Shown here: positions 1 to 51,019 of the stretch, one piece after another | Layout of the letters: each line of letters opens with the position of its first letter | How positions within the stretch are numbered: the first letter of the stretch is position 1 | Source of the DNA: Amoebophrya sp. A120 | Taxonomy: Eukaryota; Protista; Dinoflagellata | DNA length: 64,000 nt | Assembly (NCBI GenBank): GCA_905178155.1 | Contig: CAJINV010000001.1 | Coordinates: forward strand, 155,079 to 219,078 | Direction of reading: 5' to 3' | Notes under the pieces: generated by a model | What the model saw: only the letters and a program-made list of their open reading frames with translations | The model's database searches: none | What the model was told of the DNA's origin: nothing | Made by a program: the position numbers and the translations under genes

Positions 1-2340
1 TGCGCCCGAAAAGAGGCAGGCACAGCCCCCCGGCAGGCACGCCTGCGGTTATTGCGCACGTAGCCAGGCAAGCGGCCGGCCCCGCCCCGGCGGGCGGCCG
101 GCGCTACGTTGTCGCATGCGCCACCGGGCAGCGGATTCACGCCCCGGGGGCGCCGGTGCGCGTGTAGCTTGCTGCGAACCAAGAGAGGGCGCCCGGGCTT
201 CGGCGGTTGCTACCGACCCCCTGAACTTGGTTGGCGCGTTGCGCCGTTCGGGGCGCGTGCGGGGCATGCGCTCCGCGTACTCCACACTTGCGGCGGCCGG
301 CGGGCTCTTGGGGGCCCGGGCGCCGCTGGGGTTGGCGTCGGTTTGCCCAAACCCATAGACGGAAGGAACACCCGGCCCGGCCGCGCCAGTCCTTCGCCCC
401 CCCCGCCCGCGACCGACCTAGACCGGGGCCACAGTGTGCCGGCCGGCAACAGCCGCGCGGGCGTGGCGCCTCCCTGCGCACTGCTGAGCCCGGGCGGGGG
501 AGGCGTGTTATTGGGGCGCCGAAGCGATTCCGCCGCATCCGCCAGGCGCCAGCCGGCCGGGGCCGGCCTGTCTGGGGGCCTCCCGCCCTCTGATATGGGG
601 GCGCGCCTGCATGTTGGGCCCCGCCGGCCTGCCTGCGCGCCTGGAATACCGGGCGGCGCCGCCGCGGGTCTACTTCCTACGTGCCGGCGGCCCGATTGCC
701 ACCCGTCGTTCGTCTCGCCCTTCGCTCGCCCTGCGCCCCACCCTGTGGGCCGGGATTGGGCGATCTGTTTCGTCTCTATCTGGTCAGCCGGGGCCTGTGC
801 GTTTGCTGTTTTGCTTTTCCGACAAGCATACCGTGCGGTCCGACGTCGGACCGCATGGCACGCTCGACACCGTTTCGGGCGGGGCGAGCCATGTTGGGGC
901 GCCGGGCGATGTGGTTGGTGCACGGGCGGAACTGCGCCCCTGCGTGCGACGTAGGGGAGGGGACGTCGTGGGGGCTTAGTTACCCTCGGGGCCTGTTTGC
1001 TTGCTACGTGTGGGGCTGTCGGACGGTAAGCCGCTGCTGCGTGTGCCCAGCGTGCCAAATATAGCCTCCGTGGCGGAGGTGGTGAGGTCGGTGCCGCTGG
1101 CTGCCTTGCCCGCCCGCCGGCCGTTGCCCTGGCCAGCCACTGTGTCTTTTTTCTGGGCCCCCCGTGCCGCTTTTGGTATGGCCATGCCGCGTGGCTTGGC
1201 CGTCTTTTGGAAAGCATGGTAGTTCTTTGCCAAATTTTCAGAACCCCTGTCCGAAAGCTAGCCCTGGCGGTATGGGGCCGATCCGGGCGCCGCGGTGGAG
1301 CGCCCTGAAACCGAAGGCAAACCGGTCCCATGGCATGGGGATTGGCCTCGCGCGCTTGGCGCGCTTTTGCTTTTCTGTGTTTTTTCTTTGCGCGCCGGCA
1401 CCCTTTGCAAAGCTTCCGCCGCATAGAAACCGGCGAAAAGGCGGCGGCCGCTTTCGCGGCCGGCCAAATGCTCCGAACGGAGCCCCGGCCCTGTCGTGCG
1501 GCTTCGCTTTTCTGATTTGCCGCGAGTTTTTTGGGGCGCTCTTTTGCGCGCCCCAAATCGCCAGAACCCCACGCGGCCGGCGCCTCAGCGGGGTGCCCCT
1601 TTTCTTTGTCGGCCCTCCTGTGTCGTTAGTATTATCAGCCGGCGACCGATAGAACCCGGCGCCGGCGGTTCGTTGAAGTCAAACAAAGCCCAACAGGCTG
1701 GCGCGCTTTGATCTTCCTCATGTGGAAAAGCGCGAAACAGCAGCACACACCGCCGGCAGCTTTTGGCCGGTGGTTGCTTTGCATTAAGAAAGCTGCCAGG
1801 GTCGGGCCGTTTCGCGGTGGCGGCCCGCCGGCGGCGGGAGGCGCGGGCGGGCGCCGCGGTTCGCGGTGTTTGTGAGGCTTGGGCGCGCGCGTTTTTTGGC
1901 GAGGGCGCGTGCTGCCCGGTGCCCGGTTGCGTCGGGTTTAGGGTCTGGCGGACCGGCCCCCTTCCCTGCGTCGGTAGCCCTCCTCCTAGTCCGTTCCCGG
2001 GTAGGCCTTCCGGGCCTGGGGGGGGGCGGGTGGGTGCGATGGGCGGTCATGGCCTTTTTCTTTAGGGCGCCCGCGCCGGCAGCCGTTGGCTGGGTGCGGT
2101 CGGCGGGTGCCCGGCGCGCGCACGCTTCGGCGGGTTGAAAGGCGGTCGCTCGGGCTTCGCCGATCACCCGCGGGACAAGAGGAGGCGTCGGCGCCCAAGA
2201 CCTCGCAGGCGCCCCTGTTCTGTCGCTTGGAGTATCTTCGCTGCGTTTTTTCGTTCTGAGTCGCATTACCAAATCGTTTTCAATGCCCTGAAATCCTGAA
2301 AAGTCAAATGAAAAGTTTTGGAAAAGTTCGAATCGCCCGC
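1..2340. repeat. GC-rich interspersed repeat or non-autonomous element, truncated by the window start; partial second copy at ~37795-38480
   Basis: Collinear shared blocks with 37795-38480: GCGGAGGT(G/A)GTGAGGTC, CCCAT(G/A)GCATG(G/C)GGATTGGC, CAAATCGCCAGAA. Sharp switch to AT-rich DNA at ~2450. No credible protein. Confidence 0.6.
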
Positions 2341-3708
2341 CAATTAGCCGCTTTCCCTTGTAAAGCTCTGTGATCCTGGGGTGGAAGTTGGGGAAATGCC
2401 TAGGGGATCTTGATCGACTGACAGTGACAACATTCACATTGGACACCATAAACCTAGAATAGAAATAAAGTCCTCATATATAAATTCTCGACTTTCTATT
2501 TCTCAAATTGCATTCAGATGCAAAAATTTTTGAACTTTAAAAAATCCAAGAGAATATATATTCTCATATATTTTTCTGTGAATTCGTTTTTTTTCAAATT
2601 ATAGATATTCAATAATATATATCCTGAATCCGAATCCATGTTTTTTTTTTCTTTTCGATATATAATCCCGATCTTTAATTTTTCGGTATGATATCAAATT
2701 TTTGGAGTTCGGGAATAAGAACACAATATTATAAATTAAAAAAGAAATTTTCAAAGAAAATATATCAATGAATATTCTGTAGTATCTGTAGGATGGATAT
2801 ATCTGATCGGATTTCATGTTTCCCTTTCTTTTCGATTTTCCATGATTTAGGAATTTGGAAAATTACGAAAATTATGAAAAGATTCATTTTTTTTTCAGAT
2901 AATTTCCAAAAAATTTCGAAACATGATCTGAATACACCTCGAATTTCTTTTCCGATTTTTTTGGAAATTCTTCAAGAAAATAAAAATATCCATAATCCCA
3001 TCATTCCGACATCAATCCAGATGAGATTCTCCACTCCAAAAATTTTCAAGATCCTATTCTTCTTTTCTTTCTCGATTTGATCTCTCAATAAGATTCATTT
3101 CAATTATTGATAAAGAATTATTTCGACATTCATTCTTTACCAGAAATCGATTCCATATTTCCTAGATGATTCGAGGGAAAAAGAGATTAGAGAGAGATTC
3201 CTGGATATTATGATTTTTTCTTTCTTTTTCCTCCTTAAGATCAAACATCCATTTATGAGGGTCGATTGACCATAACCATTCAGCCCATTTAAACCATTCG
3301 CAAAAAATGAAAAGCAAAATCGTAGGGCCTTGCTCTCCGGGATCTTTTCCTGGGGGCAGGCTGGTTGCCAGTATAGACCTACTCCTCGGCGCTGCGGAGC
3401 CTGTCCTCCTCGTCTCCGAACTTCGGGGCGTGGTGTCGCGGCTTAGCGGCGGGCTCCGCGTCATGGCGCGGTAAAAGAAAAAAAATCGGCTTCGCAACTT
3501 CGCATGAATCAAATTCCGCGAGAGTTCGCAATATCGCATTCAAGAGGGAGCACAAACGTCTAGAGAGATTGTCTTCGATCGTGTGCCATTTCTGCCATGT
3601 GTCGTTTTTTCGAAAATATAATCGCCGCACTGTCAAGTCCGACTTGCGGGACATCTCAGAAATAGGATTTCACTTTGAAGGTTAGTGCAACTATAGACTG
3701 AGGCAAAG

Positions 3709-6700
3709 ATGACGAAGACAATCGCTGACGCCCTCAAGGACGACAAGTCCTTGCATATGTTGGGTGTGATTATGTTTGCGGCGACACTCCCTTATGCGGC
3801 TTTCGGTTCCGCGTTGTCGCTGTTGATCGGGGTGCAGATCGGGAGCATCTTTGTGCGAAGATTACGTGCGCGGAGCGTGGAAATGTTGAAGCGCTTCCAC
3901 TACGACCAGCTCGACGCGCTTGTAAAAGAGCATCCTGACGCTGTAGCCGTACTACGACTGGGCCACGATGGCACCCCACTGGGTGTCACGGTAAGCTCCG
4001 GGACGGCCGCTGCCGGGCGGGTTAACCATGCAGCTGAAGTTTTCATCATGACGTGCAAGGTCAATCTGCGGGCAATCGGATCCGGAGTGAGCAACCTGAT
4101 TCGCATCCCGGTAGACCTTGTTACGATGGCGCGCAAGGCTGCGGGCGACATCTTCCCACATCTACAGCAGCTGGTGGAAAGAATTGAGCAGCGAGTTTGC
4201 CGGGGCCCCAATTCTCGGACAGTTTTTTTGGTGTACAACGTCCAAGACAGCGGTGGCGCCGGGCGACGTATGCCACGGATCTTTCAGGCCTGGGCAGGCA
4301 TGGAGAAGTACCGCCTGTCTCCCTACACTGCTGCCACCACGCAGTTTTGCGGTCATCACTTCATACAGCTTGGGGTGATCGATGAAATTCATATGGCGGT
4401 GAAAAAACGCACACAAGCCTCATTTTCGGATTTGTCATGCATATAGTAGCACTTATTCAAAATGTATCCTGTTGAGGCTTGTGTGTGTTTTATCCACTGC
4501 AGATACCGCAAGCGGTTCCCGAAGAAAGACGAACTGAAAAAGTGGTCGACGTCGCAATACATATTCGCAAGAAAACTTGTTTACCACAAGGCCGACCTCA
4601 TGGAGGACGCGGAGCAATTTGTGGCCAAGCATTTTGCCCCGGACGGCACCGCCCCGGGGGACAGCGTCGGGGCTATCGGGAACAGCGACGCATTATTGGT
4701 CGAGGATGGGGTCGCGACTTTGTTCCACCTTTTCGGTAACGACATCCGGGTGAAGGGGCTCGGGGCCGACGACGCAGAACCACCCAGCGTTGCCACATTG
4801 GTGCGGTGGTCAGAAGACCGAAAAAAGGTGATAGCAGGAACCCAGAAGGATGCGTGCGCAGCATATGAAGCCGTTCTCTCCAAGATACATGTGGGCACCG
4901 AAACGCGCTGGTTGACGTTGGGGCGGTCAAGCGGCCTGATGGTTTTGCTGGACCTCCTCGGCGGCCGCCACCTGGTCAAGCAGAAGCAGGCCGGCTTTCG
5001 GAAAGGACTTGTCTCTGGTTGGGCAGGTGTAATCGACAGGGACATGGTCCTGGTCGCTCTGGTTTGTCGGCCAGCGGACGCGGCGATGGTCAGCTCGCTC
5101 GAGGCGCCGGGGCTGAAACCGGGCGAAACACTGCGGCAACGGGTTCAGGCGATTTGCGCGGTGGCCTGGCACGAAGTGCATCTCATCCTCGGCAAGCTCG
5201 GGGCGATCGGGGGTAAGGTTGACACGCAGAACGCCGCCGGAGGCGTGGCCCGGGTCGCAATGAGGATCTACCAGCGGCTGCTGCAGGTGGACCCGGATGG
5301 AATTTTGTTCCCGTTTTTGGACATCGTCAACGAGACGACGTTACGCCTTTGTGCAAGTGCCGCACTATTACGTACTGCAGCATTATGTCATGCAGGATAA
5401 GAAGCTGAGTTTGTATCCTTACCGCAGGTAGAGCGTCAGCTTTGTCATGCTGTTTAGCAGTTAGGGGTAGTGCGGTGCTTTTCCATGTAATACATGCGCC
5501 CCAGGGCGCTCGAGAAGTTCCGAAAGATGGAGCTGCAAAACGGGTGGGACAACCTTCAACTCCTGCCGGAGGCAACACTGGTCGACCTTGCCACTGCTTT
5601 GGCGGAGCTCTTCACCATAGGCACGAAGGAAGAAGAGTCGGGCCATGCCATCGCCAGCAAAAAAGTTGGTCTGCACAGCCACAGGCGGACCATCGAGGGC
5701 CTCAGCCAGGAGTGCCTGATACCACGCTACGCCAAAGAGCTCCAGAGCAAGGAGGTCGGCGCGCTTTTGACAAAACTAAAGAAAAAACGGGCGCCGAAGC
5801 GGGCCGGGCCCTATCAGCGGTTTTGCGGCGCATACATCCAGGAGGAGCTTGGAAAGGCGACGGCGAAAAGTCCAGAACTCTTGGGGAAGGAGCACGGCGA
5901 AGCCCGGCGCAAGCTGGCGCGCGAAGCGTTCTCCGCAGCAGCTGCGAAGTGGAAGGAGCAAAAACTGAAACGGGGCCCGCAGCCCGATCTGCAATGCCCC
6001 AAGCGGAGGAAAGTAGACGTGGGCTGCCCAGCAGGGGCCGGGGATGTGGAATTGCAGACTCCGGGCGGTGGCGAGGTGGCAGTGCGGGACGCAGGTTTTG
6101 AGACAATAGACATCCCGGGCATCGGTATGGTTTACCTGCAGGAGCCAACCGCGAATCAACCCCACACTCCGGCAGCGGAAGGCACTTCTGCCCGGGCGGC
6201 TGGTGAAGCGGGAGGGGCGGGGCGTGCAGTAGTCGACGTGGGGGCAACGGCCTCCGAGCTCCCGAAGCTGCCATTGTCCCTGGATGTGATGCGGGAGTAT
6301 TGGACCACCAGCGATGAACAAATAACGCAGGACAGGAAGATACACTGTGGAAAAGTATTGCTTTCGTGCAAGTGCATTATGGCAAGACAGATCGACGCTT
6401 GCATTCCGTATTTGTGTTGCAGATCCTGTTGGCCAGATTTCGTCTAAGCTGCGGCTTGAGTTGCAAGGAGGGGCATTCTTGAAAGGCGTGAAGCATTTGC
6501 ATTGCAAAAAGTTAGGCAGTAGCAACGCACCCCGCAACAGCTTATCTGGGCGTGGTGTGTGAGATGTGATATCCTGGCGCAGGATAGGGCCGTGAGCTGT
6601 CTTGCAAGAATGCAACTTGCATGAAGGCGATATTTTTCCACTGGATATTTTGCTGCGTGCACGGCGCCACCGTCCTGGGATGGCACACCCATCGAGACTG

Positions 6701-8091
6701 CGTTTTGGAAGTACAAACCGAAGCCGGTGCCGCCGATATCCAACCTGGAGAAGCGGGTCCTTTTTGCGGAGGATAAACAGGCGGTGTTTCATCTACGAGG
6801 AGTGTTGTATAGTGTCCCGAAGCCGCTTGACGGGCCCGCGATTAGTTCCTCTTCCGGCGGCAGCAGCAGTGCCGCGCCCCCTGTGCCAATCCGTATGTTT
6901 GCGGTGTGCACGCGAGAAGGACACGCTCGCCGCGTTTCGTGCCTTCCGATGCGGCTGTTTTCCCCGTCTACAGATGCAGCCGGCATCTACGCCGGCCTGC
7001 TTCCCGCCGAAGAGTGCATCCCCATATCGTTCAAGAGCATGTTCTCGCATTTCAAGCCCGGCACGCAAACTGCTTGGTATGGAAACCTGGTCTTCAACGT
7101 CGGCTACGGGTGCTTCCGGTTTGATTTCGACGGAGCGGAAAAGGTCGCGGACCTGCCACTAACGGAGGAGCAAATCGACGTGGAGCCCGAAACGGAAACC
7201 GAGGAAGAAGAGCCCGAAAGCGACGAAGAAATACAGGAGCTGCAGCGCTTGTTGTTGCAGCAGGAGAAGACGGTCCAGGCTTTGGCCGGCGAGGATATGG
7301 GTGGGAGACAAATCAAGAGGTCAGTCTACCAGTCAAAAAGCAGTGACGCAGCCAGCACTGCGGTGGCACCATTAAGCCTGGCGCAAAGTAGTGCGAGTGC
7401 GGCGGCGCGGCAGAATGTCCGCACGGGGCAGAACGTTGGCGGGGCGCGGCACCGGAACGAGCCGGGCTACCAGGAGCGAGCAGAGCAGATCCACGGGCAG
7501 CTCCTCGCGGCGCGGGCGACGTTGGATGATATTCCCCGGACCGAGCTCATCGAAGATGGCTACTCGGTCCGACTCAACGGGGGATTATGGCTGAGGGCCC
7601 ACACGAAAGCCGACGCCCCCGGCCACGAGCCGTGGATGCCAGTGGCCGGCCTGGTCTTCAACCACGTTGTCTGCAATGCGCCACACAGCACCCATCGGGC
7701 ACTGGGGTTGGCCCTCAGCCGGCAGTTCAACATACACAAGCACGGCGGAAAAGCCATCTGCTACCACCTCGCACTCTGTTGGGCGCGGGCCGCTGCGTAT
7801 GTGTGCAAGGTGGTGCCCGCCGCGGAGCTGTATCCGGAACTGCAGCAAATAGCCACCGTAGAAGACCGTGTGCGTGACATGATCGCGGAGGATGTTGAGT
7901 ACTTGGAAGTAGTAACGCGGCAACCGGACGAGGCAGAAAGACAGGAAGCCGCGGGGCGTGAGGCTGGGTTGACAAACGACGTCATCCAGCAACGCGCGAC
8001 CACCGCTCTGAAGCAAGACATAGTAGCGCCTCTATCCAAATTCTTGCGCAAAAAAATCGCTGAGCACTTCAAAACCGAAAATGACAAGTAG
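3709..8091 (+). CDS. Spliced DDE transposase (hAT-related RNase H fold) with a long C-terminal extension; exons correspond approximately to ORFs 3709-4391, 4506-5341, 5493-6340 and ~6727-8091
   Basis: Motifs in hAT order: LRLGHDGT (D1), VYNVQDSGG (D2), QFCGHH (CxxH), ETRWLTL (TRW), TIGTKEEESGHA (candidate E). The ORFs are separated by IR-bounded intron-like segments. The last exon could be a separate gene. Confidence 0.65.
4392..4505. mobile_element. Introner-like intron in the transposase gene
   Basis: IR AAAAAACGCACACAAGCCTCA...TGAGGCTTGTGTGTGTTTT, TAT...ATA ends, internal TTTGTCATGC. Removal gives in-frame EIH-RKRFP. Confidence 0.6.
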
Positions 8092-8299
8092 CCGAGCTCG
8101 AATGAGAGAACTTCTTGATGAACAATCACAGGCGCAGCCATGTCGTTTTGACTAAATTCGGACCATTTTTCGTTGTTGCAAAATTGCGTGCTTCGGGTCG
8201 TTTTTTCGATTTCGGCCGCACCGCGCGGCGAGAGAATATGTTGAGCGAGAAAAAAAACTGCGTCTTCCACCCCCCAAAAAAAAATATAGCGCAAAGCGC

Positions 8300-8632
8300 G
8301 CGCTGGCCATTCGGGCCATTCGAGCCATTCGCGCGGGCCGCCCGGGAGCGGCCGGCGCACCGTTCAGGGGCAATCCATTCGGCCCATTCGTGCGCGCGAA
8401 CGGCCCGAATGGGTTGAATGGGTCGAATGGATCTAACGGCCTGAATGGCTCGAGTTTTCGGTCCATTTAGGCCCGCCAGGTGGGCCGCTCGACCCATTCG
8501 CGCCCCGCGAATGGGTCGAATGGCTCGAATGGGTCGAATGGGTCGAATGGCTCGAGTGGATTTCCGGCCGTTTTTCGAATGGGTCGAATGGCCCGCGGCT
8601 GAACGGGCCCGCGGGCCGGCCGGGCCGGCCTA
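8300..8632. repeat. Internal array of 9-bp units (CGAATGGGT / CCATTCGAG) in both orientations, matching the TIR subunit
   Basis: e.g. CGAATGGGTCGAATGGCTCGAATGGGTCGAATGGGTCGAATGGCTCG at ~8508-8555; the same motif makes up both TIRs. Confidence 0.85.
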
Positions 8633-8879
8633 ATCCGAAGCCCCGGCCGTCTGGCCGGAAGCGCTGCGGCGGAGGGCCGGGCGCCTCTATGTGTGCGCCC
8701 CAAGCGGGTTTTATCTGGTGAGGGAGACGCCGTCTCGAAAAAATGATGAAGAGACAATTATTTTCACTTTTTGCAATTTTGAAGCGCTGTGCAATTTTTC
8801 TGTAAAATTTCAGATCCTAGAAAGACCCCGAAGTAGTCAACCCCTCTAGTACATCGCGAATTCGCCCCGAAGTCAGAAA

Positions 8880-11800
8880 ATGGATGCTGACGAGCTGGCC
8901 GCTGCGATCGCCGATGCCGACGCGAAGGAGGAGAAGAAAAAGCAAAAAAAACAAGAGCTCGACGAGGAGAACAGCGGCAAAAACATCTCCAAAGCCCTCC
9001 TCCGGCAGAACTTCACCGTCACCGACGGCAACATCGAACTGTATCGGAAGTTGCGCGGCCGCAGCGGGCGGCTGTCCAAACCGCAGTGGGAAACCTTTGC
9101 CCAGATGCCCCTCGCCGAGGACAATGTCACCCACGTCTTCGACGCGAGTGTTATCGCGCAGAAGCGGGTCCTGAAAACGGAAAAAGTCGTCGGGTTTCAG
9201 CGCAGAGAGCTGTTGAAGTTTCTGACCGACCAGTACAAAGCGCTGGCGGACCCAGAACTTGCCAAGCAGAACCTCTCCGGCGTATCCTGTGGAAAGTATC
9301 GGGTTCGCAAAAATGCACACTTTGCATGGAAGACGTTTCGAATAGTGTTGATTTTGCATGACAGATTTACAATTTCGCTTTTCCCTTGATTTGTAATGCA
9401 AGTATATACAAGCTCGATATTTTTGTGATGCATACACAAACAATACCGGCAACGCGGAGTTTCTCTCTCGCGATGGCGACCAGAACAGCAATTTGCGCCA
9501 CGGAGAAAACGCAACTGGCGAAGATGGCAGGGCGGCGAGCATGGTGCAGGACGACGTGGAGTCGGGTGAGGAAGTCGAGAGTAACGCTTCCTTGCGGATT
9601 AAGGAGGAACAGCAGTCCAACGAGGACGAGGAAATGCCTGCGTTCGACCAGCAGGATGACGGGCAGGAGTCCGCGGCAGGCGGAGATGATGACGCGGGCG
9701 CGGCCCGGAGCGATGCCATGTCGGACGGGGATTTTTCGGTGGAGGGGCACGTGCAGTCCACCTCGGAGAACCCGGGCAACCTGGACCTGGAGATCGAGGC
9801 CGGGGAACAGCATGCCAACCAGACCGGAGCGTCTTCTTCAAGCAGCGCATCCGCCTCTACGGGATCCTCCAGCAGCCGGACAGCAAACATCAGCAACATG
9901 AGCAACTTCGTCGCTACATCCGGCAACACCTCTGGCCAGACGAGCTCCACTGCTACCAAGTCTTCGCGTGCCGGGCCGCGTCGTGTAGTGCGGGAAGTTA
10001 TCAGCGCGGAAGCCACGGACATTGCGTGGACCGAGCAGTTGAAGGCTCGGGTTTCGCTGGGCGAGGCGGCGCTGATTAAAACCACGAATGATCTCAAGCT
10101 GACCGACATTACGCCGTTGTTTTATGTGCAGCGACACCTGGAATATTCAGCACCGCGCAATGTTTGTCATGCTAGTTTGCATGTGAGGAGTCTCCCCTTT
10201 GGGAGTGAGCACTATTTGTCATGCGAGCTTCTCCCCTCTGGGAATGAGCACTATTTGTCATGCTGAGCACTATTTGTCATGCGGGAATGAGCGCTATTTG
10301 TCATGGTCGATGGTGATGCATGAAAAACAAAGTGCATGACAAATTTTGCGCGTTGCTGAGGATGTCTAATTTTCTTGCGGACACGTTTCAATTCGAAGCT
10401 ACGACCAAAACCGGAGTCGCAGTGCTGAAGAAGATGGCCATGGCGTCCCTGGGTTATCAAGTGGGGAGTCCATATCTCCTCCGATTTGTAATGCAGCAGT
10501 GCGTCCGGTCAAAAGTTAACTTTTGAAAATGCGCACTGCAAATTATTGGAGATATGGGCTTTTGGATTGTATACGCTGAAGGCCTATGCATTGCAAAAAA
10601 AAGAGCTTGTGGTAATATTATCGCAGATCTTTTCGAGCGGCGAGATGTGACTTGTCATGCAAATTTTTCCCGGATACCAAATTTGTCATGCATGATTGTG
10701 ATTTACGACAAGCGTTTTTTTTTCCAATTGATAACGCAGCCCTGAAACAGCAGACCAGCCATCTCCGGGATTACGAAGGCGGCAAGTTTCTGTATTGGCT
10801 CGACCACAATGCCGAAGGATTCGATCCCACTGACCTGCCGCTTCCGCACGACTGGGTCTTCGTGTTGCCGCCCGGCATGGATAACGAGATGAAGGAAAAG
10901 GTCGACAACTACCGGGCGCGGGGAATCAAGGATGCCGCGCTGACGTTGATCGAGGGCGGAAAAGTCAAGAAGTTGAAGAAGATGGTGGCCGCCGCGTCGC
11001 ACCAAGAGCCGGTGGTGTATGAAATGCTGATGAAGGCGATTGCGTCTTCGGACGTGTGGCACGACTTCCACGACATGCAGATCACGGTGGAAATGATTTG
11101 CGCTTTGGTGAAGAAGGCGGGCGGCGAAATCAAGTACCACGACTGCTATCCGGACTACCTCATGAACGAATTCATCACGATCAAGTCGCAGGGCATGACC
11201 CCCGCCTCGATCGCCGAGCTGCACAAGAAGGTCCTGGGGCTGAATGCGACTACTGCCCCCTTCCTGCCGTTCAAGAAAACCACTCTCACGCTCCTGTGCG
11301 ACCTGCTTGAGGAATCCCGCCGGACCCTCTCCACCCTGGTCGACAAACTGCTGGGGGTGAGTGACTCTACACAGTTCCTGATCTACTACAGGTATATAAT
11401 GCTTCCTGTGATGTCGTTAGTAGAGTCTCTGCCTATTTCCTCTGCGGTGGTTTGTCGCGTGTGTTTTTGATATTCCGAATCGTTGTTTGCAATTTTAGCA
11501 TTACATCTGTCACTCCAGGCGGGCGACGACCCGGGCTGAGTTGATCCTCGCTGTCGAGACCTTCAGAAAGGATGCCCCGACCCACAGCATCCGCGCCCTG
11601 CGGCTGTTGCACTACCTGGGGATGGCCAGCGATTGTCCGGAAGACCTCGCGAAGGAGATCAAGAACACCGAAATGTCGGAGTTCGATGGCATCTTCAAAC
11701 TGGCCATGGCCCGCCAGATGGGTACGGATGTGACCAGCGCCCCGCTGCGCGTGAAGGAGGTGGTGAACCTCACGTACAAGACCCTGGAGTTGATGGCAGA

Positions 11801-12230
11801 GGACTCGCTGGTGGAGATGGGGAAGTTGTGCGAGTTGGTGCGGGACAACCTGCCGCAGTACATCCCGAAGGAGGACATCATCAAGGCCGGGGAGGCTGCG
11901 AAGTGGTGCACGGAGGAGCGGTTGCGCCAAAAACGAGAAGCAAAGGCGGAGGAGAAGAAGGAAAAGGCGTACGAAGGTACGGACTCGGTTCTGGCGGGAG
12001 GGGCGAGGAAGAACAAGAAGCAGGCGGAGGAGGATACTATGATGTTGGCGGACCGGCTGGAGGACGCGAAGAAAGCCCAGGCCGCTAAGCGGCAGCGGGA
12101 CCAGATGCAGAACTCCTCCTCCAGCAGCTCGGGGACGAACAACAACGGGTTGAAGTTTGCGAAAAAGGACCAGAACGTTTTCATGGACGAGCTCGAGGCC
12201 TTGTACCAGGACGATGACGACAGCGAGTAG
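8880..12230 (+). CDS. Spliced second gene of the transposon; unknown acidic/charged protein
   Basis: GC3-rich ORF segments 8880-9281, ~9470-10125, ~10735-11390 and ~11520-12230, separated by segments rich in the introner motif. Stop at 12230. No family recognised. Confidence 0.6.
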
Positions 12231-13615
12231 TCTGGCGGAACAGGTCAGCACAAGCCAACGACACTAGCAGCAGTACTACCAACAGTTAATAGCAGTGAAT
12301 TCATCCAGAAGAGCAGAACAACCATCCTTCAATAGTTTCAGCAGTCAGTCTCTGTGATCAGTACCGAAAAACAACCAGAAAATTGATCTTGCAACTTGCA
12401 GCAGCAGAAAAATCCTGATGATTAGTAGACAAACCTCCTCGCCACATCACTGCCGATCAAATTCGGTGAAAGAACTGCGCGAGCACCCGAGAACTTTGCC
12501 GCTTTGCCTACAATGCATTGCGTCGCCCCTTTACTAATTTTGAGTACGCAACAGCAACAGTCTTGAACAATGTAAGAAATTCCCGTCGAGTAATTTTCCA
12601 GTTTTGCCGAATAATGCAGCAGTGGCGCATCTCCTCGTGCGTACCCTGTGCAAAAGTGCCGCAGCTGGAGTGTTTGGGGGTTTGCATGACATATGCCACT
12701 CGTAGGGGAAATCAGCATTACAGACTCTATTTTGGTTTATGAAGGAGTTTGCATTGCGACTTCCAGCATTGCGGGCCTTTTGTCATGCATAGCATCCCAC
12801 GACGCGCTAATGTAAACGAAAAACAACGAACAAATGCATGGATACCGGATCGCAAGCCCTGCGCTACTGCCCTCCAGATACCCAGGGCTTGGACTCGACA
12901 CCAAACGAAAATGTTGAACTGGCCTCCGAGAACTACAGTCTTTTCTTCTTCCCCCCTCATCCTGACCACCCCACCCTTCGAGCAGGGCAGCAACTCGGGT
13001 CCGGAGCTGGCATCGTGGTCGCGCGTAGCGATCGTTGGTTCCTGGCAGGAGATCATTGAAAAAGGATGATGTGAACTACGTTTGTGGTTTTCTTCGTTTC
13101 TCAGTTATTCCCCAAATAGATGAACTGGTATTTGTAGAAAAAAAGCAACTGGTGCTTCCCTAAACCGAAGGAACTTTTTTCTGATTTCTTGGCAAGTTGC
13201 AAAAAAAAAGTAAAGCAAGTGAGTCGGAAACTGGGGCCCTGCAGGTTGCTCTTGTTGTGTTCGTGTTCTGTGCCTCGCACTAAGGGAATTGCACTCGTTT
13301 GCGTCATCTTTTTTTGCCTGCTTGCAGGACGGAGTCGAAAATGCCATAGGAGCGGAGGGCAGCACTGGCTGGCGTAGCTGGCATCTTGGGTTGCATGCGC
13401 GTGGGCCCTTTGACCCAGCCAAGCCTCGGGTCGTCGTTTCGCCACCATCGCGTCACGGGTTGGATTCACGGGAGTTGCGCGAGGCGTGGCGCACCAAATC
13501 CCAGGCGGAGATAATACGGAGCAACATTGCTGTCGGGCTACGTGGAGATGAATGGCCGAAACGTTCAGCAGTGCCACAACCGGGAACGCAGACGGTGGGC
13601 AAGCTGACCCCGGGA

Positions 13616-13630
13616 CCATTTTGGCTCAAG
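13616..13630 (+). other. Dinoflagellate spliced-leader motif (DinoSL nt 8-22, relict form)
   Basis: Exact CCATTTTGGCTCAAG, followed ~20 nt later by a T11 run. Confidence 0.7.
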
Positions 13631-14173
13631 TTGGTTTGCATGGAAAATATTTTTTTTTTTGTTCAATGGTCTAAATGGCTCGAATGGTTATGGTCAGTCT
13701 GACCCTCTTGAATCCATAGAAGATCTGATATTCTTGATCTCTGTCATCAATTGATTTGAAAAGATTTCGAATCAGGGGAAAAATAATGATGTTGATGTTG
13801 ATGATTCATTCTGATTTTTATTCGTAGAAATAAAAAGAAAAAGAGTGCCGCGTTGGTGTTTGTGATTGTGTGTGTCTGCCGTGAAATTCATTAATACAAA
13901 CATGACAAGATGATGATTATGAAGATCAGAAAATTGGTGTGAATGTAGTCGGAACATGGGGGACATGTGGAGGTGTTGTTTTGTGCGCATGGAGGCCAAG
14001 GCTCTGCTTCCCGGGCAGCCTCTGTGTCGCGCTTCTGCGCAGTACTCCGCCGATTGTCAAAAGAGTATGGATCTTGTCGTTGTGGTCCGCTTTGGTCCCG
14101 CGCTGCGGCCGCGGCCCGGCTGTGTTGTCTTGTGTGTTCCATAGCTATTTTGTCGTTGTTTTTTATTTTGATT

Positions 14174-17100
14174 TCAAGCGCTGCGCCTGCGCCGACGTGG
14201 ACGACCATCAGGATCAAGTGGACGACCATGATCATCAGTTGGTTGTTGTTTCAACTTTATGAATTGGTACCCCAGACCCGCCAACAAAATGCCAAATGCA
14301 ATGACAATTAGGTGGAGGTCCTGGATCCCCGTCAAAGGAGTGAGATAGTGTATAGACAATATGACTGTGAAAATGGTAATAAAAGCCATCAACATGAGGA
14401 AGGATCTTATTGGGTATGCGTATGCCGTTGCTGGAGCCCGACGTAAATTGTTCCATGTTCCTGCTGCGACCCAAGAAAAAAAGTTCCATGCTAGTCCTGG
14501 TGCTGGCGCTAAAAACGTGTGCCAACAGGAGGAAAACAAAGCAGAGCAACATGATGTGCACGCTGCGCAGCGGTCCTTCCTTGTGCTCGGTGTTACTACA
14601 GTTTCCGGGGGTCCCGGAGGGCCTCCCGATCCGGGGCGCAGCGCCCCGGAGTGTTGCTTGGGGAGTTCGGTAGGCAGCAACTTTGCATCTTCAGCAGACG
14701 CAGTGCCTGTCGCTCGTACCGGAGCACCGACAAGGCCGCGGCGGGCCGCTGGGGTCGTCCACCAACGCGCCGCTGTAGTTGCGGCTTGATATCTTCCAGG
14801 GCGGATTGTGCTGCCTTTCGGATTCGAGCGCGCTTCTCCATTTTCGTCCCCCGAGTCCAGAGTACTTGCATCTTCACTGTCGGCGGCCCTGCGTCGCTGC
14901 CCCTGCTGTTCCGTGACGGGTCGAGACGAGTACTCTTGGCGCTGCCAGAAGTAGTGGTCTTGGCGCATCTGAATGTGAGAGCTTGATGACTTCGCGCGAC
15001 CCAGGTTCTGCTTGGCCAGGATTTCAAAAAAGGACGCCCCCGCGCGTTTGTGCCCTGGCGACCGCGCAGTGAATTGTGGCACCGTCGGAACGCCTTGTGC
15101 CTTTTTCTCCTCTGCTGGATTCAGGTACCGTTTCCCCGATGGCAGTATGCAACTGCAAAAGCAAAGGCGCAAGTGGCATCGGCAGTATCTTCCAGTAAAT
15201 CTTATAATGTAAATGTATAGATATCTTTATCCAATCTGGATGATAAAGTTTCGCATCTGGCAGATACGAAACTTTTTTTAAACAGTAAGCACAAAGAAAG
15301 TTCACTCACGGCAGCGGCACGCTTAGAAGAGCGCATCATGCAATAACGATGAGAAACAGATGAGTGATGAATCGCAAAAGAGAATAGACATCTAGATGAT
15401 GTATGAAGATCAACATGGAAAACGAAAAAACTACTACGGCGTGCTTTATGTATTCATCTTGCACTTGGCACGGGCGCGGTGCTTCTTTTAAGGGGGATAT
15501 CTAAGACGCGGCCCCATTCCGCTTGCAGGACCGGGAGGACGTCGACGAAGCTCTGTACCAGGCGCCGATCCACACCGCCATCCTTAGTCTTCCGCGAGCG
15601 AGATGGGCCCGTCTTGTCCGCCTCATCTCTTCCGAACAGAAACTCTCCCGTGCGCCGAAAGGAATCGCCTACGCCGCCTGCGATCGGAGCGTGGTGTATT
15701 AACTCCGCCAAAGTTGTAGTTGTAGGAGCTGTACCGCCAGCGGCGTTTCTGTTTCGGCTTTGGTCCTCCTGCTCTTTCGCTTTCCTCCCGCTGACCGACA
15801 AAAAGCCTTGCACGAGCAAAAGCATCGCGACAATTACGCCGGCAAATTGAGCCTCCGGCGATGCTGCTATCCTGCTGGGAAAAAGAATCATACTCGTTGC
15901 TTGGCGTGCCAATTTTTCAATATCGCAGTGTTGCATGACACGGAGGCACTGGGCCCTCTTAGTTTAAGTCGCTCCGCACTAGCTCTTCGACTAGCGAAGC
16001 ATACAAAAAAGTCATTGCAAAGGCAAGCCGCGGACGGGCACGTGGAGAGCCGATGCATAAGGAAACACAAAGAAGGCAATTTCTAAACCTACCTGCGAGT
16101 AGAAGATAGTTTTGCATTCAATAGACGCCACCATCTCGGAAAATGATGAAGCTGGACCGGAAAGAACAGTGGCAGTGCGTGGGGTAGTTTTCGTCGGAGC
16201 CGCCTGGTTTAGTATTACATCTGCATCAGCGCGCTCTTTCTCATGGTTCTCATAGGGTTCTCGACGTGTCCTCGTCTGCTGCATCTGTTCCCGCCTGTTA
16301 CCCTGGAAGAACTGCAGGAGGCTCCCCTTTGGCGTTCTGTTCGCGATCGTTCTCGTTGTTCTCGGGATCTTCGTGTCGTGGCCGTCCTTTTCTTGTGTAG
16401 TTTCTGCCCCGAGATCGCGCGCCCTTCCCAGTGTTCCCAGGAGCCAGCCGGATAGAACGTCCACACTGGTAAAATGTTGCCAATCGATTCCCTGCACTAC
16501 GCGCTTGACAATGGGGAGCAACAATCGAGCCGGGGCTTGGTCTGGCGCGTCATTATCTTCCGCAGGCGCCCCAAACATCTCTCCAAACATGTCGAGCGTG
16601 TCGCTCACGCCGGACATTGCGCGCCTCGCCCGGCCGAAGTACGTGCCAGTGGTAGACGGAGCTGATTTTTTTCCGCCGCCTGTTCCCGTAAACAAGCCGA
16701 AGCCACGCACTTCGGGCATCAGGAGGAAACTATCCTGCATTGGAAACGCGAGCAGCTTGCTGTCCGTAGACAAAAGGTCGCGCTCCGTCAACCTAGGAAA
16801 GACGTCCAGCACCTGCAAACCATGGTAAAGCGGCGGAGCGCTATCCTGGGTACAAACGTTCCCGCTCCAACATCCTCAAGACGGGAAATCTGCTAAACAA
16901 ATCGCCTTCGCCGAGCTGTGGTTGTTGAGCATTACAAAAAATTTGGGCTAGCAGGGTAAGTAAGTAGTCTTGTTGAGGTAGTGTAACCACAACACATCAC
17001 AGATCTAGCATATATCGCTTAATATCATTTGAAGAGCATCACAAATCTGAAATAAAACACGACTAGAAATAAATGCTCCTCATTATGGAGCTGCGCATGA

Positions 17101-20100
17101 GAAACATGTTTTTTTAGGCATGAGGATTTTTTGCATGACAGTGTTGGGATGGGGACGTTTTTCACAGAATAAGCGAAGTCGGTTTCAAGTACTTTTTCGT
17201 CGGCGAAGGCCGCGAAGGTCGCCTGCAGAATCTGCTTCATCACCTATCATGATGAAAACCGCACCTGGCCCAGAACTGCTACTTGGCAGCATTTGCATTG
17301 CAAACCCGCCAAGAAAAACTAAGCACATTCCCGGACTTGCATGTATCAGCGCCGCGAATTCCCGCTGCACAAATATCCGCTGCAAAAAGGCCGAGCAACA
17401 GCGGCGTTCGTCATGTAGGAGACTAGATCAGGAAAACTCGTAATTGGTTCTTCCACGCATGGCATGCCATGCAACACAAAGATAAAGAAGAAGCACAAGC
17501 TCCTGCTTCCATTTGGAAACTTTGGGCCAAACACATTTCCCTCTTCATCTTCTGGGGAAGGTGGGGCGCTTTTCATTCCAATATCAACCCCTCAAGATAC
17601 CGCTTGGCCCGTTTCCCCAATTTCGCGCGAATTTCTCGCTCGGCGTCCCCGCGGTCCTTCGACGGAGATCCTTATAACCCTCTCACGCGGGACAACCTCT
17701 TCGGTGGTAATGATGAAGTAGGAGGCCCATGATGCAGATGCATATCATCAAGATCATCATCATGCAAAGACAAAGACAAAGACGAGTGCGCGCTGATTAT
17801 GATTTGGCACTTTCATATATATTTTTTTATAGAATGTAAACGTATATGTAAACTCATGCTGGAATATCGCCGATCTGAATGCCCTAATAGCATCTACGTG
17901 AAGTAACTTTGTGCTGGTTGCGAATGAACCAGTGTGGCTTCGCACGTTCTTCCACCTGCGGCTCATGCAAGACAATAAAGGCTCCGAAGATCAAAACACT
18001 CTCACAGTTGAGATATTTACGCGTGAGCGGGTTATAGTTGTCGCGCCGTGCTGGTCTGCCTTTTCTTCTTGCCCAAACCCGCCGGGAGAGAGGACGTTCT
18101 TGCCTTCTTGTAGTCATACTCCCGGAGCAGCGTCTTCGGAATATGCAGCCGACTGGACTGTAGGAAGCCGCGCAGCAGCCGGGCAAGGTTTTTCGCGGCG
18201 AAGTGCAAGAGGCGGTAAAACGCGTAGTCTTCCTCCAGTAGCACCCCCTGCAGGCGTTCTGTGGACACCGCTGCGCCGCTGCTTCTACCCGGAACGAGAG
18301 TTCGCGCAAAGCTCGCTCGGTCGTAGAAAACTCGGTAGACTCGGAGCTGTCCCCGCCGCTTTTTTTTTTCCCCTTTTTTTCGCACCAAGCCGGCGGGCGC
18401 GAACACGCGAAAGCCCCCGACACGCGCTGTGTCCAATAAATGGCTGCCGCTCGAAGTCGCACTGGCCGACGGCGTGGTCGCAGAGGCCGAGGCCTTAGCT
18501 TGTGGCCCAGCAGCAGGCGGAGCTTTCGCAACATGGGTGTGGCTTTCATCCTGCTGCCCCGGAGCCGCTAGCTTCGTAGCTCCCGGGGGGAGAAGTCGGA
18601 GAGTATCGGCGGCCAAGTCCTCTAGGAAGATACGCGGAGCGTACGCCTGTGGCCCACGAAGGCCAAGGAAGTTCTCCAGGGGGACCGCTTCCAAGGAGAT
18701 CCGAGCAACCTTCTTTCCGCGTGAAAAAAGGTCCTCCGGACTGGCGAAGGTTGGTTGCGGCTGTTTCTGCCCGCCATGATGATTCGCAGCTTTTTCCTCC
18801 GTGCCGACCACATGATAAGCCACCTGCGTCACCGCAAAAACAGATCCGGGGCTGAACATGAGCTGCGGACTCGCCGAATTAGTAGAGCTGCTGAAGACGG
18901 GGATTAGGAACGTCACCAGGTCACCGGCTTGCGGGAGTGGAAACAGGTATTGCAGGTTGATCTGAAACTGTTGCTGTTGCAGATGATTGGGATGTTTTAT
19001 TTCAGTCTTCCCTGGCGGAAGCTTCACGGCGACGGGTGAGGCGAAATGCACCGGCAGCGAAAGGTCTCGCCGTGTCGTCGATTTCTGATTCCGAACGTCG
19101 CCTTTTAGCACCTTGCCGACCTGCCCCTGCAGCGCAGTCTGCAGCGGACCTTGTAACTCCGCGAACAAGGGCGACGGCCCTTCGATCGGTGCCGGAGTGC
19201 TCCCACCAGCCGTTTGTTGACCACGGAATATGACCTGTACGAAAACGGCTGCGCCTTCGGGTCGCAGGAGACCGAGGTCGTTCCCTAGAAACCGATTGAC
19301 GTTCCCGGTGTCGGTACTCAAAGCCGCCGTCAGCCCGCCACTTTCGCCTCCTGCCGCCCCGTTGAGGGATTGGGTCAAGAGGCGCAGCGGCGCTTTGATC
19401 TCTTTGCTGGAAAGAAACTCTTTGGCGGATGATCCACCGCTCGCCATGCTGATCATCCCGCGCGTCACCTGTCGCAGCGCCACCGCCCCCAGACCGTTTG
19501 CAAAGAAGTCTACCCACGTCTCCGACGGTCTTCTTGCGCCCCTGCTCGAGGACAGCTGCTCTTCTTCCTCGGTGGTCGTTGCGACGTCCTGTTCGTCGTG
19601 CTTCCTTGTTCTATGGGGCGGAGAGAGCACCACAGCGCCCCCCTACACGATAGTATTTGTATGGAGTTTTTAATATTTTCACAGCAAGATGATGAAGACG
19701 AACAGCTGCAACAGCAACACTGCAGCTCCTTCGGCATAACTTTAACTACACACCTACACGTGGACCACTAGAGCGGTATATTATATCGCTTGTCCGCGTC
19801 GCCGCCGCGAGTCTTTTTATTAAATAAACAGTGGCGAACGACAAGGGAGGACATCGGACAAGGTGGAGTGGATTTGGAATGTTCTTCATGTTCTTGCGTG
19901 ATGTACTTACAAATGAGGGACAGGCGCTGGTGGAGCTGTGCACTCTCATACCTCACTCGCGGCCGGGCAGGGGACGACGAGGAGGATCGTCCTGCGGAAC
20001 GTGAACGACCTGCGCGGCCTGACATCAGCTGCAGCCAAGTCATTTTATTCTTGGCGTGTTCGCTAGGCCGAGAACGTCGGCTTGGAGCTGTCGTTTTGGC

Positions 20101-24693: not shown

Positions 24694-27600
24694 TCAACGT
24701 GTAAAGTCATTTTTCACGACGGCACAGCCAAGAAGTAGACCCACGGGAATGGCGACAATGAGAACAATATGAAACGGTTGAATTTGAATAGGAGCGATGT
24801 GGATGTCCCCTTGCGCAGCTAGCCCTACTAACGCGACCAGAGTATCAATGGAAAACTGCAAAATGTTTCATACCTATAAAGTACTAGCTAGCACGGTCGG
24901 GCACTGTTATGAGCACCATGGCGATCATTCTTGGCATTTTTGGGCGTCCCCACAAGCACGGTCGGACCGTGCTAGAAAAGCACCCAGCCGCGTGCTAGTA
25001 GTGCCTATGTGGGCGAAAAAGTGAATATATATCCAAAAAATGGGCCGCATATTTTCCGGCTTCGAAATATGCGGCCCACTTTTCGGATATATATTCACTT
25101 TTTCGCCCACATAGGCACTACTAGCACGCGGCTGGCTGCTTTTCTAGCACGGTCCGACCGTGCTTGTGGGGACGCCACAAAATGCGAAGAATGACCGAAA
25201 TCGCGCTCATAACAGTGCCCGGCCGTGCTAGCTAGTACTTTATAGGTATGAAACTTTTCTACATTTTCCATCCCTAGACCAGAGCTGCGAGCGCAACAAG
25301 CATAAGAATGAAAACTATTTTGAATATGGAACCACACCCGGCGACCGAATCCAGAAACTTCAAGCACGATCGTGCTACAAAATTACATGGTCGCATTACG
25401 TGTTTGCAGCACTCCATTTTTCCCCGGGCCGCGGGGGAAGCACCTTCACCGCTTCCTGTGGGACTCCCGTTTCCGTTGACGACCGGTTGTGCCGCTTCGG
25501 CGGCTCCAGCAGGCACCGGTTCGCCGACGACCGGTTGCTGCCGCCGCGGCATCAAGCGAACCGCAGCACGGATTTTCGTCTTCCGCAAGTTCGACCAGGC
25601 GCTCGTCCGCGGCAACCAATTCCCGCTACCAGGTGTTGCCCCTTCTTCACCTTCTGCGGGGCGCGCGGGTGCCGGTTCGCCTCCAGAACCTGCATCGATG
25701 TGTTGCAAGGACGGCGAGTTCGACTGGGCGGGCCGCGGCGACTGATTTGTTTTTCTTTTTCCTCGCTGCGAGCGTCGGCTGCCGATATTTTTTCTATAGC
25801 GCCGGCTGTAGAACGGCGCTGAGCGTCGCTTGGTCCTCCTAGTGCTCTGGCCGCTTCGCGCTTCTTGTGCCGGAGGGTCGACCACTGAGGCAGTCGTGGC
25901 CGCCGTACTAGTTGCTGGAGTCTGTGGGTCGTTCGTCGGGGCGGGGCGCAACCTAGTCCTCAGATTTTTCAAGAGACTGATAGGGTTCAAGTTGATCCCG
26001 GGGCCAGCGGCGGGTTCATCGTATCCCGCAGAAAATAGCAGGTGGCAGGCCAGGGGCAGGGCATATTTGTATATGCAAAAATAAACACGTACATACACAG
26101 ATGAAAAATCTGTCATGCCTGTGCTCTTTAGGATACAACGCAGTACATATTTTCACTTTATTTTTGCATATTTATTTTTGCACTACAAATATGAACATGA
26201 TTATGACCTGCCTGCTTTTTTCTCTACTGGGATACTCCGGCTTCTTTTCTCTTCTGCTCCCGGTCGTTCGACCCGGCGTCGCTAGACCAAGACCACGAGG
26301 GAAAATTCATCCCCCCGCCGCTAGGTGTCATTCCTCGAGCGGGGCGCGCGGGTGCGATATGGACGCGTCACCAGGATCGAAATCGGCAACGTTGAAATAA
26401 TTTGTCATGCACAGATTGCCTGTATTGCAGAGCAGGCAAGAGATGAGGGCAACTGAAAGCCTGTTTGGGGTTAGCTAGAGAGAGAGCTGCTGAAGTAGCA
26501 CGACAAGAGATTTTTTCTTTCTCTCAACAGCGTGACAAACTGGATGTAGCTGATGCCGAAATTTGTCATGCGCCGCTTAGAAATTGGGCTTCCAACTGGT
26601 TGTATCGGTTTTAATTTTGTGCATCAAACTCAAATAAAAGCGGTTCAACTTTGTTGATTTCGATCCTGACGCTTCCATATGCGACGGGGCCATCGTTGTC
26701 TCTCCCCCAATAAGCGCTTTCTTCTTTTTTACTCTGTCCCCGGTTGCTGGACGAGAGTATGGGAGTCTCAAACGATACACTCTCAACTGCTACATGAATT
26801 TGTGTTCTTGCAAATATGCCAAAAGTCAAAGGACGTAGATTGAGATTGTGATTGCATCCCCAGCATTACAAATTCGGCACAGATCTTACTGCTGTTTACC
26901 CCTTCATCAAAAATTTGTCATGCGCAGCAGCTTCGGCGTGTCGTGGATCGATCTGGATCGGATGTTGATGTTAATTTTGCGTGACAAATCAATTCGTGTA
27001 GCAGTAACGTTTGAGAATGTAGCCACGTTTGAGAATCCCATAGAAGATGCGGGGCCGGAATTCGACCTCCCCCACGGAAGTTTACTCCACCACCCGTATG
27101 CGCTGGAAATACGTGTGGGCCTGGAAGGACGCGAACTTGTGATGGGCATTTCACAACGCCGCGCACAAATAATCCCTCGTCATGCATAGGCAACAAAAAA
27201 CACCCACAACTTCCTGTCACCAAAATGTAAATGGGGGATTTGTAGTCAACATGCGGACTAGAAGGCATTGCGGAACCTTCTCGGAATCTGTGATGCTGGG
27301 GCGTCCATGACGGAACTTGGCCTTCCTCTGTGTCATGCAAAAACAAACAGCATGACAAAAGTGCGCACCCTTCCAGACCCAGACATATTTGCAGTCGATA
27401 ACCCGCGGGCAGGTACTACCCCGTCTGCAGGGACCTCGGTTGCGATTGCAGCAGCAGCGCCACCAGGTCGTGGTCCTAGGTTGTGTGTAGCAAAAGTGGT
27501 CTCCCTGCCGTTCCTCGCTTGATGTGGTCCTCTCCTCGGCGGAGCACCGAAATAAGTATGGGCCGGCGTTTGATACCATTTTTGGACGAAGTACTTTCGT

Positions 27601-50819: not shown

Positions 50820-51019
50820 ACGCGGCAAGCAAAGCGAAGGGGGCCGGTTGCGAAGCTTATTCTGGGGCGGCTTCGGCGGCCGGCGCAAAGAAAGCCCCCG
50901 CCCCTGGATGGGGATGAGACTCACGCTTCCGGGGGCTTGTTCGCGCGGTTTTGCCTCGCGCCCCCCCGCCCATGCCATGCACCAGAAGCCGAGAGGCAAA
51001 AGCGTGCCCGGCCGAAACG

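What the first reader, a model, noticed from the sequence alone, without database searches (positions are those of the whole stretch)
13609..13660. Dinoflagellate spliced-leader motif inside the transposon end, pointing outward
Seen: exact CCATTTTGGCTCAAG at 13616-13630, then ~20 nt, a T11 run and the right TIR. Known: DinoSL is DCCGTAGCCATTTTGGCTCAAG; this 15-mer is the usual relict left by retroposed mRNAs and contains the Sm site, and SL RNA genes are short and end in oligo-T. Chance expectation for an exact 15-mer in 128 kb (both strands) is about 1e-4 under uniform base composition. It precedes no ORF and is not followed by the GT donor. Inference: a captured SL relic, or an SL-RNA-like small RNA or decoy carried by the transposon.
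Basis: partly seen in the sequence, partly recalled or inferred. Interest (0 to 1): 0.75.

Follow-up and report, generated by a model that had tools for sequence, protein, structure and literature searches.

The report
Spliced-leader relic riding a transposon end
A 15-letter piece of the leader that dinoflagellates splice onto their messenger RNAs sits just inside the end of a 10.5-kb jumping gene and is shared with two other copies of that end, most likely as a functionless leftover of an RNA once copied back into DNA, an ordinary kind of relic in an unusual place.

Summary
The 15-mer is real (13616-13630, +; 18 of 21 letters match the full leader; chance 1-3.5e-4 per window). It lies 20 nt inside the right inverted repeat of a 10,459-bp two-gene DNA transposon (3253-13711, 6-bp duplication ATCCAT) whose proteins have relatives in Amoebophrya. 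Two other copies of this end exist in the genome: one keeps the 15-mer exactly, one has a T>C change. So the motif predates their spread, but it is no better conserved than its neighbours (1 change, 2.0 expected, P=0.36). It lacks the GT donor and folds no better than shuffles. The T11 run mirrors an A-rich run at the left end, so it belongs to the inverted repeat. The motif points at a gene block on the opposite strand. Leader copies that head no gene are published for Amoebophrya (about 0.04 per 64 kb), over 100 times chance. Verdict: a leader-derived passenger; a small-RNA, decoy or promoter role is unsupported, but the RNA data could not test it. This scan earlier noted leader copies in LINEs of this genome and in LTRs and a transposon of other genomes.

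The parts
13616..13630 (+). [quoted passage not shown]
   Evidence: leader sequence as printed in PMC6616646 and PMC5585692
13631..13649 (+). 19-nt spacer between the motif and the inverted repeat; starts TTGGT (no GT donor), holds a TTGCATG word that is enriched in the window; 3 changes among the copies
13650..13711 (.). Right terminal inverted repeat, beginning with T11; terminus at 13711
   Evidence: (I13); a sister copy leaves the alignment behind 13711
3253..3313 (.). Left terminal inverted repeat, ending in an A-rich run that mirrors T11
   Evidence: alignment score 72, best of 2000 shuffles 37
3247..3252 (.). Target-site duplication ATCCAT, left copy
13712..13717 (.). Target-site duplication ATCCAT, right copy (a 5-bp reading TCCAT with the end at 13712 fits the letters but not the sister's exit point)
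13294..13711 (.). About 420 bp of right end shared, at roughly 90% identity, with two other genomic copies that have other flanks
3709..8091 (+). Gene 1, intron-split, predicted DDE transposase with a CxxH motif (HDGT, QDSGG, CGHH, EESxH); superfamily not assigned
   Evidence: homologues at 45-50% over exon 1, motifs kept; no Pfam, PDB or fold match
8880..12230 (+). Gene 2, intron-split, no known family; follows gene 1 in Amoebophrya AT5.2 gene models too
8300..8620 (.). Internal cluster of the 9-nt unit (CCATTCG core) that also builds both inverted repeats; likely transposase-binding sites
   Evidence: function inferred
13328..13702 (+). 124-codon open frame after a pyrimidine tract and CAG (13307-13327); reads the motif as PFWLK; coding status unresolved

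Best explanation
The motif is most likely a DNA copy of the host spliced leader that entered the right end of this transposon family once, before the three copies seen here spread, and likely rides along without a function. Shown: the exact 15-mer, its place 20 nt inside the right inverted repeat of an element with a 6-bp target duplication, and its presence in two sister ends. Inferred: a leader-capped RNA was reverse-transcribed by a host retroelement and its 5' end was joined in near the terminus (direct insertion later trimmed, or filler taken up during gap repair); whatever followed the leader was lost or never copied; the relic survives because the terminal few hundred bases are what every derivative of a cut-and-paste element keeps.
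For: Chance 1-3.5e-4 per window against at least 56 sites holding the leader 3' end in 87.7 Mb of A. ceratii, about 0.04 per 64 kb (53 full-length and 3 exact 15-mers listed); none of the 53 was tied to a gene model. Host is Amoebophrya-like: named homologues are from AT5.2 and A25, and Amoebophrya trans-splices DinoSL from a single leader gene per genome. 2 of 2 sister ends carry the motif, one exact and one with 13621 T>C. Changes in the 15-mer 1 against 2.0 expected from 13600-13681, P=0.36. No donor: TTGGT where the leader RNA probe in PMC3101222 implies GTACA. Folding z 0.06, 0.46, 0.25. T11 is in the inverted repeat. The first 9 frames of 200 codons or more to the right are all on the minus strand (10 of 13 up to 35 kb), so there is no gene for the motif to lead here.
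Against: No cargo, poly(A) tail or clear insertion duplication follows the motif, so the retro-insertion itself is not shown. Three copies give almost no power: zero changes would also have been compatible with neutrality, and the one change is in the copy whose terminus is worn. That change gives ATTCTGG, which is the Perkinsus L-type candidate Sm site, so it need not be inactivating. Start of motif to T-run is 41 nt from the inferred leader start, within the size of dinoflagellate leader RNAs (56 nt or less). The three letters before the 15-mer (GGA for TAG) differ in a row, odd for simple decay. The base rate comes from another Amoebophrya species.
Confidence: 0.72

Rival explanations
1. 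The relic has been co-opted as an outward-facing cis element: its TTTG core acts as a basal promoter, or its final AG as a trans-splice acceptor, so that the element end gives leader-headed transcripts into flanking DNA wherever it lands.
For: Orientation is outward; it lies in the stretch kept by all three copies; TTT(T/G) of leader relics is proposed as a core promoter in Symbiodinium (PMC5585692, passages); earlier scan notes describe leader copies built into LTRs in other genomes (unchecked).
Against: No excess conservation; sister B has lost TTTT/TTTG; the flanking block here is on the opposite strand; nothing similar at the left end (mirror score reached by 119 of 2000 shuffles).
Confidence: 0.11
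2. The element encodes a roughly 45-nt leader-like small RNA, ended by the T-run, that binds Sm proteins or the cap machinery as a decoy.
For: Holds the exon-located candidate Sm site AUUUUGG; leader RNAs end in poly-T tracts and are short (PMC3101222); the T-run is kept in both sisters.
Against: No GT/GC donor, which PMC6616646 uses to call leader-like loci pseudogenes; similar donor-less leader-like loci in Perkinsus gave no RNA by RACE or blot; no Rfam match that reaches a gathering score (9 weak matches, none a leader RNA); ordinary folding; T-run explained as inverted repeat.
Confidence: 0.07
3. The match is chance, helped by the element's own 9-nt unit, which shares CCATT and GGCTC with the leader, or by coding in the 124-codon frame.
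For: The unit CCATTCG occurs 17 of 18 times inside the element; GGACCATTTT also occurs at 8160; sister B's change moves toward the unit consensus; in the open frame all 10 third-position differences are silent, no stops appear, and both sisters have a 3-nt in-frame insertion. About 229 windows of this genome were read, giving 0.02-0.08 chance hits.
Against: The site scores 3.8 bits on a profile of 24 units whose lowest score is 7.3; 182 of 127,974 window positions score as high; unit-based probability 3.6e-7 in all. Silent share 10 of 24, P=0.11, with radical replacements; no homologue of the frame. Published real leader copies outnumber chance over 100-fold.
Confidence: 0.08

Closest known systems
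Relict and orphan DinoSL copies from mRNA recycling (PMC3229502, PMC5585692, PMC6482013, passages; Slamovits and Keeling 2008 known only as cited there)
   Same: Same 15-mer, the usual relic form cut after leader position 7; genomic; no donor; A. ceratii lists exact orphan 15-mers and 53 full-length orphans.
   Different: No gene or retro-copied body follows; it sits in the subterminal part of a cut-and-paste DNA transposon and is multiplied with it.
Donor-less leader-like pseudogenes (Fugacium, PMC6616646; Perkinsus, PMC3101222; passages)
   Same: Leader sequence without a GT/GC donor.
   Different: Single, not tandem; Fugacium loci are transcribed, here expression is untested; whether the 19 nt after the motif resemble the Amoebophrya leader-gene intron could not be checked (Fig. 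S6 of PMC7789003 is a picture).
Pack-MULE / Pack-TIR capture of host sequence (PMC8277862, abstract only)
   Same: Host-derived sequence inside a TIR element, copied with it.
   Different: The captured piece is about 15-21 nt and of likely RNA origin; the source locus and junctions are not identified.
Dada transposons (PMC3706591, passages)
   Same: DDE transposase with a C/DxxH motif, 6-bp duplication, about 10 kb, and a short subterminal word shared with a small-RNA gene.
   Different: This element has 60-bp inverted repeats (Dada has none), is not inserted in a small-RNA gene here, has the word at one end only, and has a second gene.

Membership tests
DinoSL relic | Match to the leader 3' end beyond chance in genomic DNA | tested here: met
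   15 of 15, 18 of 21
DinoSL relic | Host uses DinoSL trans-splicing | tested here: inconclusive
   Host assigned to Amoebophrya by named homologues; trans-splicing taken from PMC7789003, not seen in reads here
DinoSL retrogene | Coding sequence or retro-copied body with poly(A) and target duplication after the relic | tested here: not met
   19 nt then the inverted repeat; only a 20-codon ATG frame, ATG lost in sister C
SL RNA gene | Full 22-nt exon | tested here: not met
   GGA in place of TAG
SL RNA gene | GT/GC donor right after AAG | tested here: not met
   TTGGT; definition
SL RNA gene | Candidate Sm site in the exon and a 3' T-tract at small-RNA distance | tested here: met
   ATTTTGG at 13618-13624; T11 at 13650; but the T-tract is part of the inverted repeat
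SL RNA gene | Capped small transcript | not testable with these tools
   Only contigs of presumed RNA runs and raw reads that did not lay at all
TIR (cut-and-paste) DNA transposon | Inverted repeats, target duplication, other insertions with different flanks | tested here: met
MuDR/hAT/P/Kolobok/Dada-type DDE transposase | D, D, C/DxxH, E motifs in order | tested here: inconclusive
   Motifs kept in 6 of 6 (first three) and 5 of 5 (E) rows that cover them; no profile or fold match, model pLDDT 41
Dada | No terminal inverted repeats; insertion inside a small-RNA gene | tested here: not met
   Inverted repeats present; flanks AT-rich (27% and 33% GC); no RNA family at the right junction; left junction not scanned

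The most novel reading that the evidence does not exclude
This Amoebophrya transposon family has built the host's spliced leader into its right end as a portable, outward-facing cassette (basal promoter plus trans-splice signal, or a 45-nt leader-mimic RNA ended by the T-run of the inverted repeat), so each jump plants a ready-made mRNA 5' end in the genome or titrates the host's trans-splicing factors.
Probability: 0.15. Interest if true: 0.72.

Novelty: new member of a known kind. Interest (0 to 1): 0.27.

Why it matters
As a passenger it adds a small point: DNA transposons, not only retroposition, can multiply leader relics, which inflates counts of 'retrogene' marks in dinoflagellate genomes. 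If it proved functional it would be a DNA transposon using the host's trans-splicing signal in cis, and three allelic loci (exact, exact, one-letter variant) would give a natural test of the disputed ideas that AUUUUGG is the Sm site and that TTTG is the dinoflagellate core promoter. The element itself, a two-gene 6-bp-duplication family without a Pfam match, is relevant because PMC7789003 reported no transposase in one Amoebophrya genome.

Tried and rejected
No whole genome was held, so no genome-wide count. RNA: no listed holder is on record as RNA. Raw RNA runs X8 and X9 laid 0 reads on 11400-14400, including the neighbouring stretch, so they are no test. Contigs of presumed-RNA runs X3 (11400-14400), X5 and X6 (13500-13800) had nothing over the motif; X3 had one contig from 14053 on; contigs cannot show small RNAs and a filter drops records, so this is not counted for or against. 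DNA ends of distant relatives were not obtained: metagenome scans with P0010 and alignment A2 and a viral-contig scan for motif plus flank found nothing. Element-unit origin of the 15-mer: rejected numerically. Third gene over the motif: not supported. Mirror counterpart at the left end: not significant. 'Split leader' idea (TCGTAG at 3320-3325 near the left end as the missing 5' part): CGTAG occurs 126 times in the window, rejected. CTGACCC at 13604 and 13699 as an insertion duplication: both sisters have G at 13607, inconclusive. Structure: single-exon model pLDDT 36, aligned model 41, no fold match; Atlas search unavailable. Bacterial promoter/terminator scan uninformative. No homologue for the right-hand neighbour frame, so its orientation rests on strand bias of long frames. 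Paper searches for a leader inside a DNA-transposon end (listings only) showed no such title or abstract; subscription journals and Repbase are not covered.

Full report
Observation. The 15-mer CCATTTTGGCTCAAG is at 13616-13630 on the plus strand. It is the only match in the window with up to 3 mismatches, 0 of 100 shuffles hold it, and Markov models of the window expect 1.1e-4 to 3.5e-4 copies (orders 0-3). No other leader suffix of 8 nt or more is present. Over 13610-13630 the match to the 21-nt leader is 18 of 21; the next best in the window is 15 of 21. The three extra matches are weak evidence alone (P=0.20).

The element. Inverted arms at 3264-3313 and 13650-13699 extend to 3253 and 13711 and are flanked by ATCCAT on both sides; a sister copy leaves the alignment exactly behind 13711, which favours a 6-bp over a 5-bp duplication. 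The arms align with score 72 against a best shuffle of 37, and the alignment includes the T11 run against the left A-rich run, so the run needs no terminator role. Inside are two intron-split plus-strand genes. Exon 1 of gene 1 has four clear relatives among 1.84 billion representatives (E 1e-60 to 4e-29; four further hits are weak multi-stretch matches); three are named from Amoebophrya AT5.2 and A25 and one is an unnamed JGI protein whose cluster holds an AT5.2 model. Two AT5.2 gene models cover gene 1 and gene 2 in the same order. Motifs HDGT, DSGG, CxxH and EESxH are kept in all rows that cover them, the pattern that PMC3706591 gives for MuDR, hAT, P, Kolobok, Dada and IS256 (passages). 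No Pfam, PDB or fold match was found and the models are poor, so 'transposase' is a prediction and no superfamily is assigned. Earlier notes label this genome Amoebophrya A120; I tested only the genus.

Contigs of DNA run X1 (possibly the window's source) lie at single depth (41) over gene 2 but at about three times that from 13294 to the end. At higher resolution, in X1 and X2 (one sample), two other contigs cross the motif. Copy C (142 nt, 11 other letters) has no difference in 13608-13641, so it keeps the exact 15-mer, and continues into a different flank behind 13711. Copy B (12 other letters, 1 gap) has 13613 G>C and 13621 T>C and a worn terminus. The contig of the window's own version of 13571-13681 was not among those laid, probably through the tool's filter. 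Neither sister matches gene 2 at 80% or better, so they are likely internally deleted or diverged derivatives. The motif is therefore ancestral to 3 of 3 ends. Counting the 11 listed events in 13600-13681, the 15-mer has 1 against 2.0 expected (P=0.36), the 21-mer 2 against 2.8: neither constraint nor decay can be claimed. B's change gives ATTCTGG, equal to the Perkinsus L-type candidate Sm site and also closer to the element's own CCATTC unit.

Is it a leader RNA gene or mimic? Leader RNA genes have GT or GC after AAG (PMC6616646); the probe in PMC3101222 implies GTACA. Here TTGGT follows. PMC7789003 reports one complete leader gene per Amoebophrya genome; its alignment is a figure I could not see. 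Rfam gave 9 sub-threshold matches in 12200-14200, none a leader RNA. Folding of the candidate RNA is ordinary (z 0.06 to 0.46). The RNA data could not test expression (see Tried and rejected).

Does it lead anything? An ATG 10 nt downstream opens 20 codons through the inverted repeat and is lost in copy C (13642 G>T). To the right of the element the first 9 frames of 200 codons or more are on the minus strand, so the motif points against the local gene block. A 124-codon frame after a strong acceptor at 13327 runs through the motif; sisters keep it open up to 13642 with 10 of 24 listed differences silent (expected 28%, P=0.11; 18 differences were not shown), and it has no relatives. I leave it unresolved.

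Chance versus relic. I tested whether the element's own repeat unit could spell the motif: the site scores 3.8 bits against 7.3-19.3 for the 24 training units, and the summed probability is 3.6e-7, so this does not rescue chance. PMC6482013 found 53 full-length leader motifs, none tied to a gene model, in 87.7 Mb of A. ceratii, and its Table S3D lists 3 exact 15-mers (part 6 of 17 of the file read). That is about 0.04 per 64 kb, over 100 times chance. So the motif is very probably leader-derived, and equally it is an ordinary thing to meet in such a genome. Earlier notes describe leader-headed LINEs and retroposons in this genome (unchecked), which would supply the reverse transcriptase and candidate donors.

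Mechanism. Most likely a leader-capped RNA was reverse-transcribed and its 5' end joined into the right subterminal region of an ancestral element; the rest was trimmed or never copied; transposition then copied the relic with the end. The entry step is inferred, not shown. Rivals are an outward promoter or acceptor (PMC5585692 proposes TTT(T/G) of relics as core promoter), a decoy RNA, and chance.

Novelty. Leader relics, orphan leader copies and donor-less leader pseudogenes are published. Four searches (listings only) showed no paper on a leader inside a DNA-transposon end, but this scan has noted leader copies in LTRs and before the genes of a dinoflagellate transposon in other genomes. 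Papers seen: PMC6482013 (passages, supplement part), PMC7789003 (passages, supplement legends), PMC3229502, PMC3101222, PMC6616646, PMC3706591, PMC5585692 (passages), PMC8277862 (abstract and outline). Zhang et al. 2007 and 2009 were not held. Verdict: real, leader-derived, probably inert; new member of a known kind; interest 0.27.

Noticed in passing
window 3253-13711: A full-length two-gene TIR element with a 6-bp duplication and a predicted DDE/CxxH transposase with no Pfam match; both genes have relatives in the same order in Amoebophrya AT5.2. Possibly an unnamed family; its interior is single-copy in the DNA contigs over the part laid (11400-13290).
   Followed up: partly
window 8300-8620: Between the two genes lies a cluster of 18 copies of the 9-nt unit found in both inverted repeats, first facing one way then the other, like an internal pair of transposon ends or a binding array at the gene 2 promoter.
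   Followed up: partly
window 13307-13702: Strong acceptor followed by a 124-codon open frame; the stretch shared with the sister copies starts 13 nt before this acceptor, and both sisters carry an extra Asp codon (GAT in one, GAC in the other).
   Followed up: partly
window 10140-10360 and 12683-12800: Introner-like inserts with TGCATGAC/TTGTCATGCA ends inside the element, one in gene 2 with an internal 39-nt tandem repeat, one multi-copy in the 3' region.
   Followed up: no
window 1-2200 and 2450-3252: A 65-73% GC block abuts an 800-bp 27% GC block; the element is inserted in the AT-rich block, at the end of a long minus-strand gene block.
   Followed up: no
window 16012-19642 and 29873-34005: Two diverged copies (88-93% in places) of the same minus-strand gene, about 13-14 kb apart.
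   Followed up: no
window 51000-53570: Satellite-like array of a 46-59-nt unit (GGCCA...CACTTTTGCCCG) in both orientations.
   Followed up: no
window 24848-25271: Near-perfect 207-nt inverted repeat with a 10-nt loop (91% complementary).
   Followed up: no
window 34460-34800 and 35960-36320: Two arrays of 6/12/18-nt CTACCC-type repeats, probably Pro/Thr/Ala-rich coding repeats.
   Followed up: no
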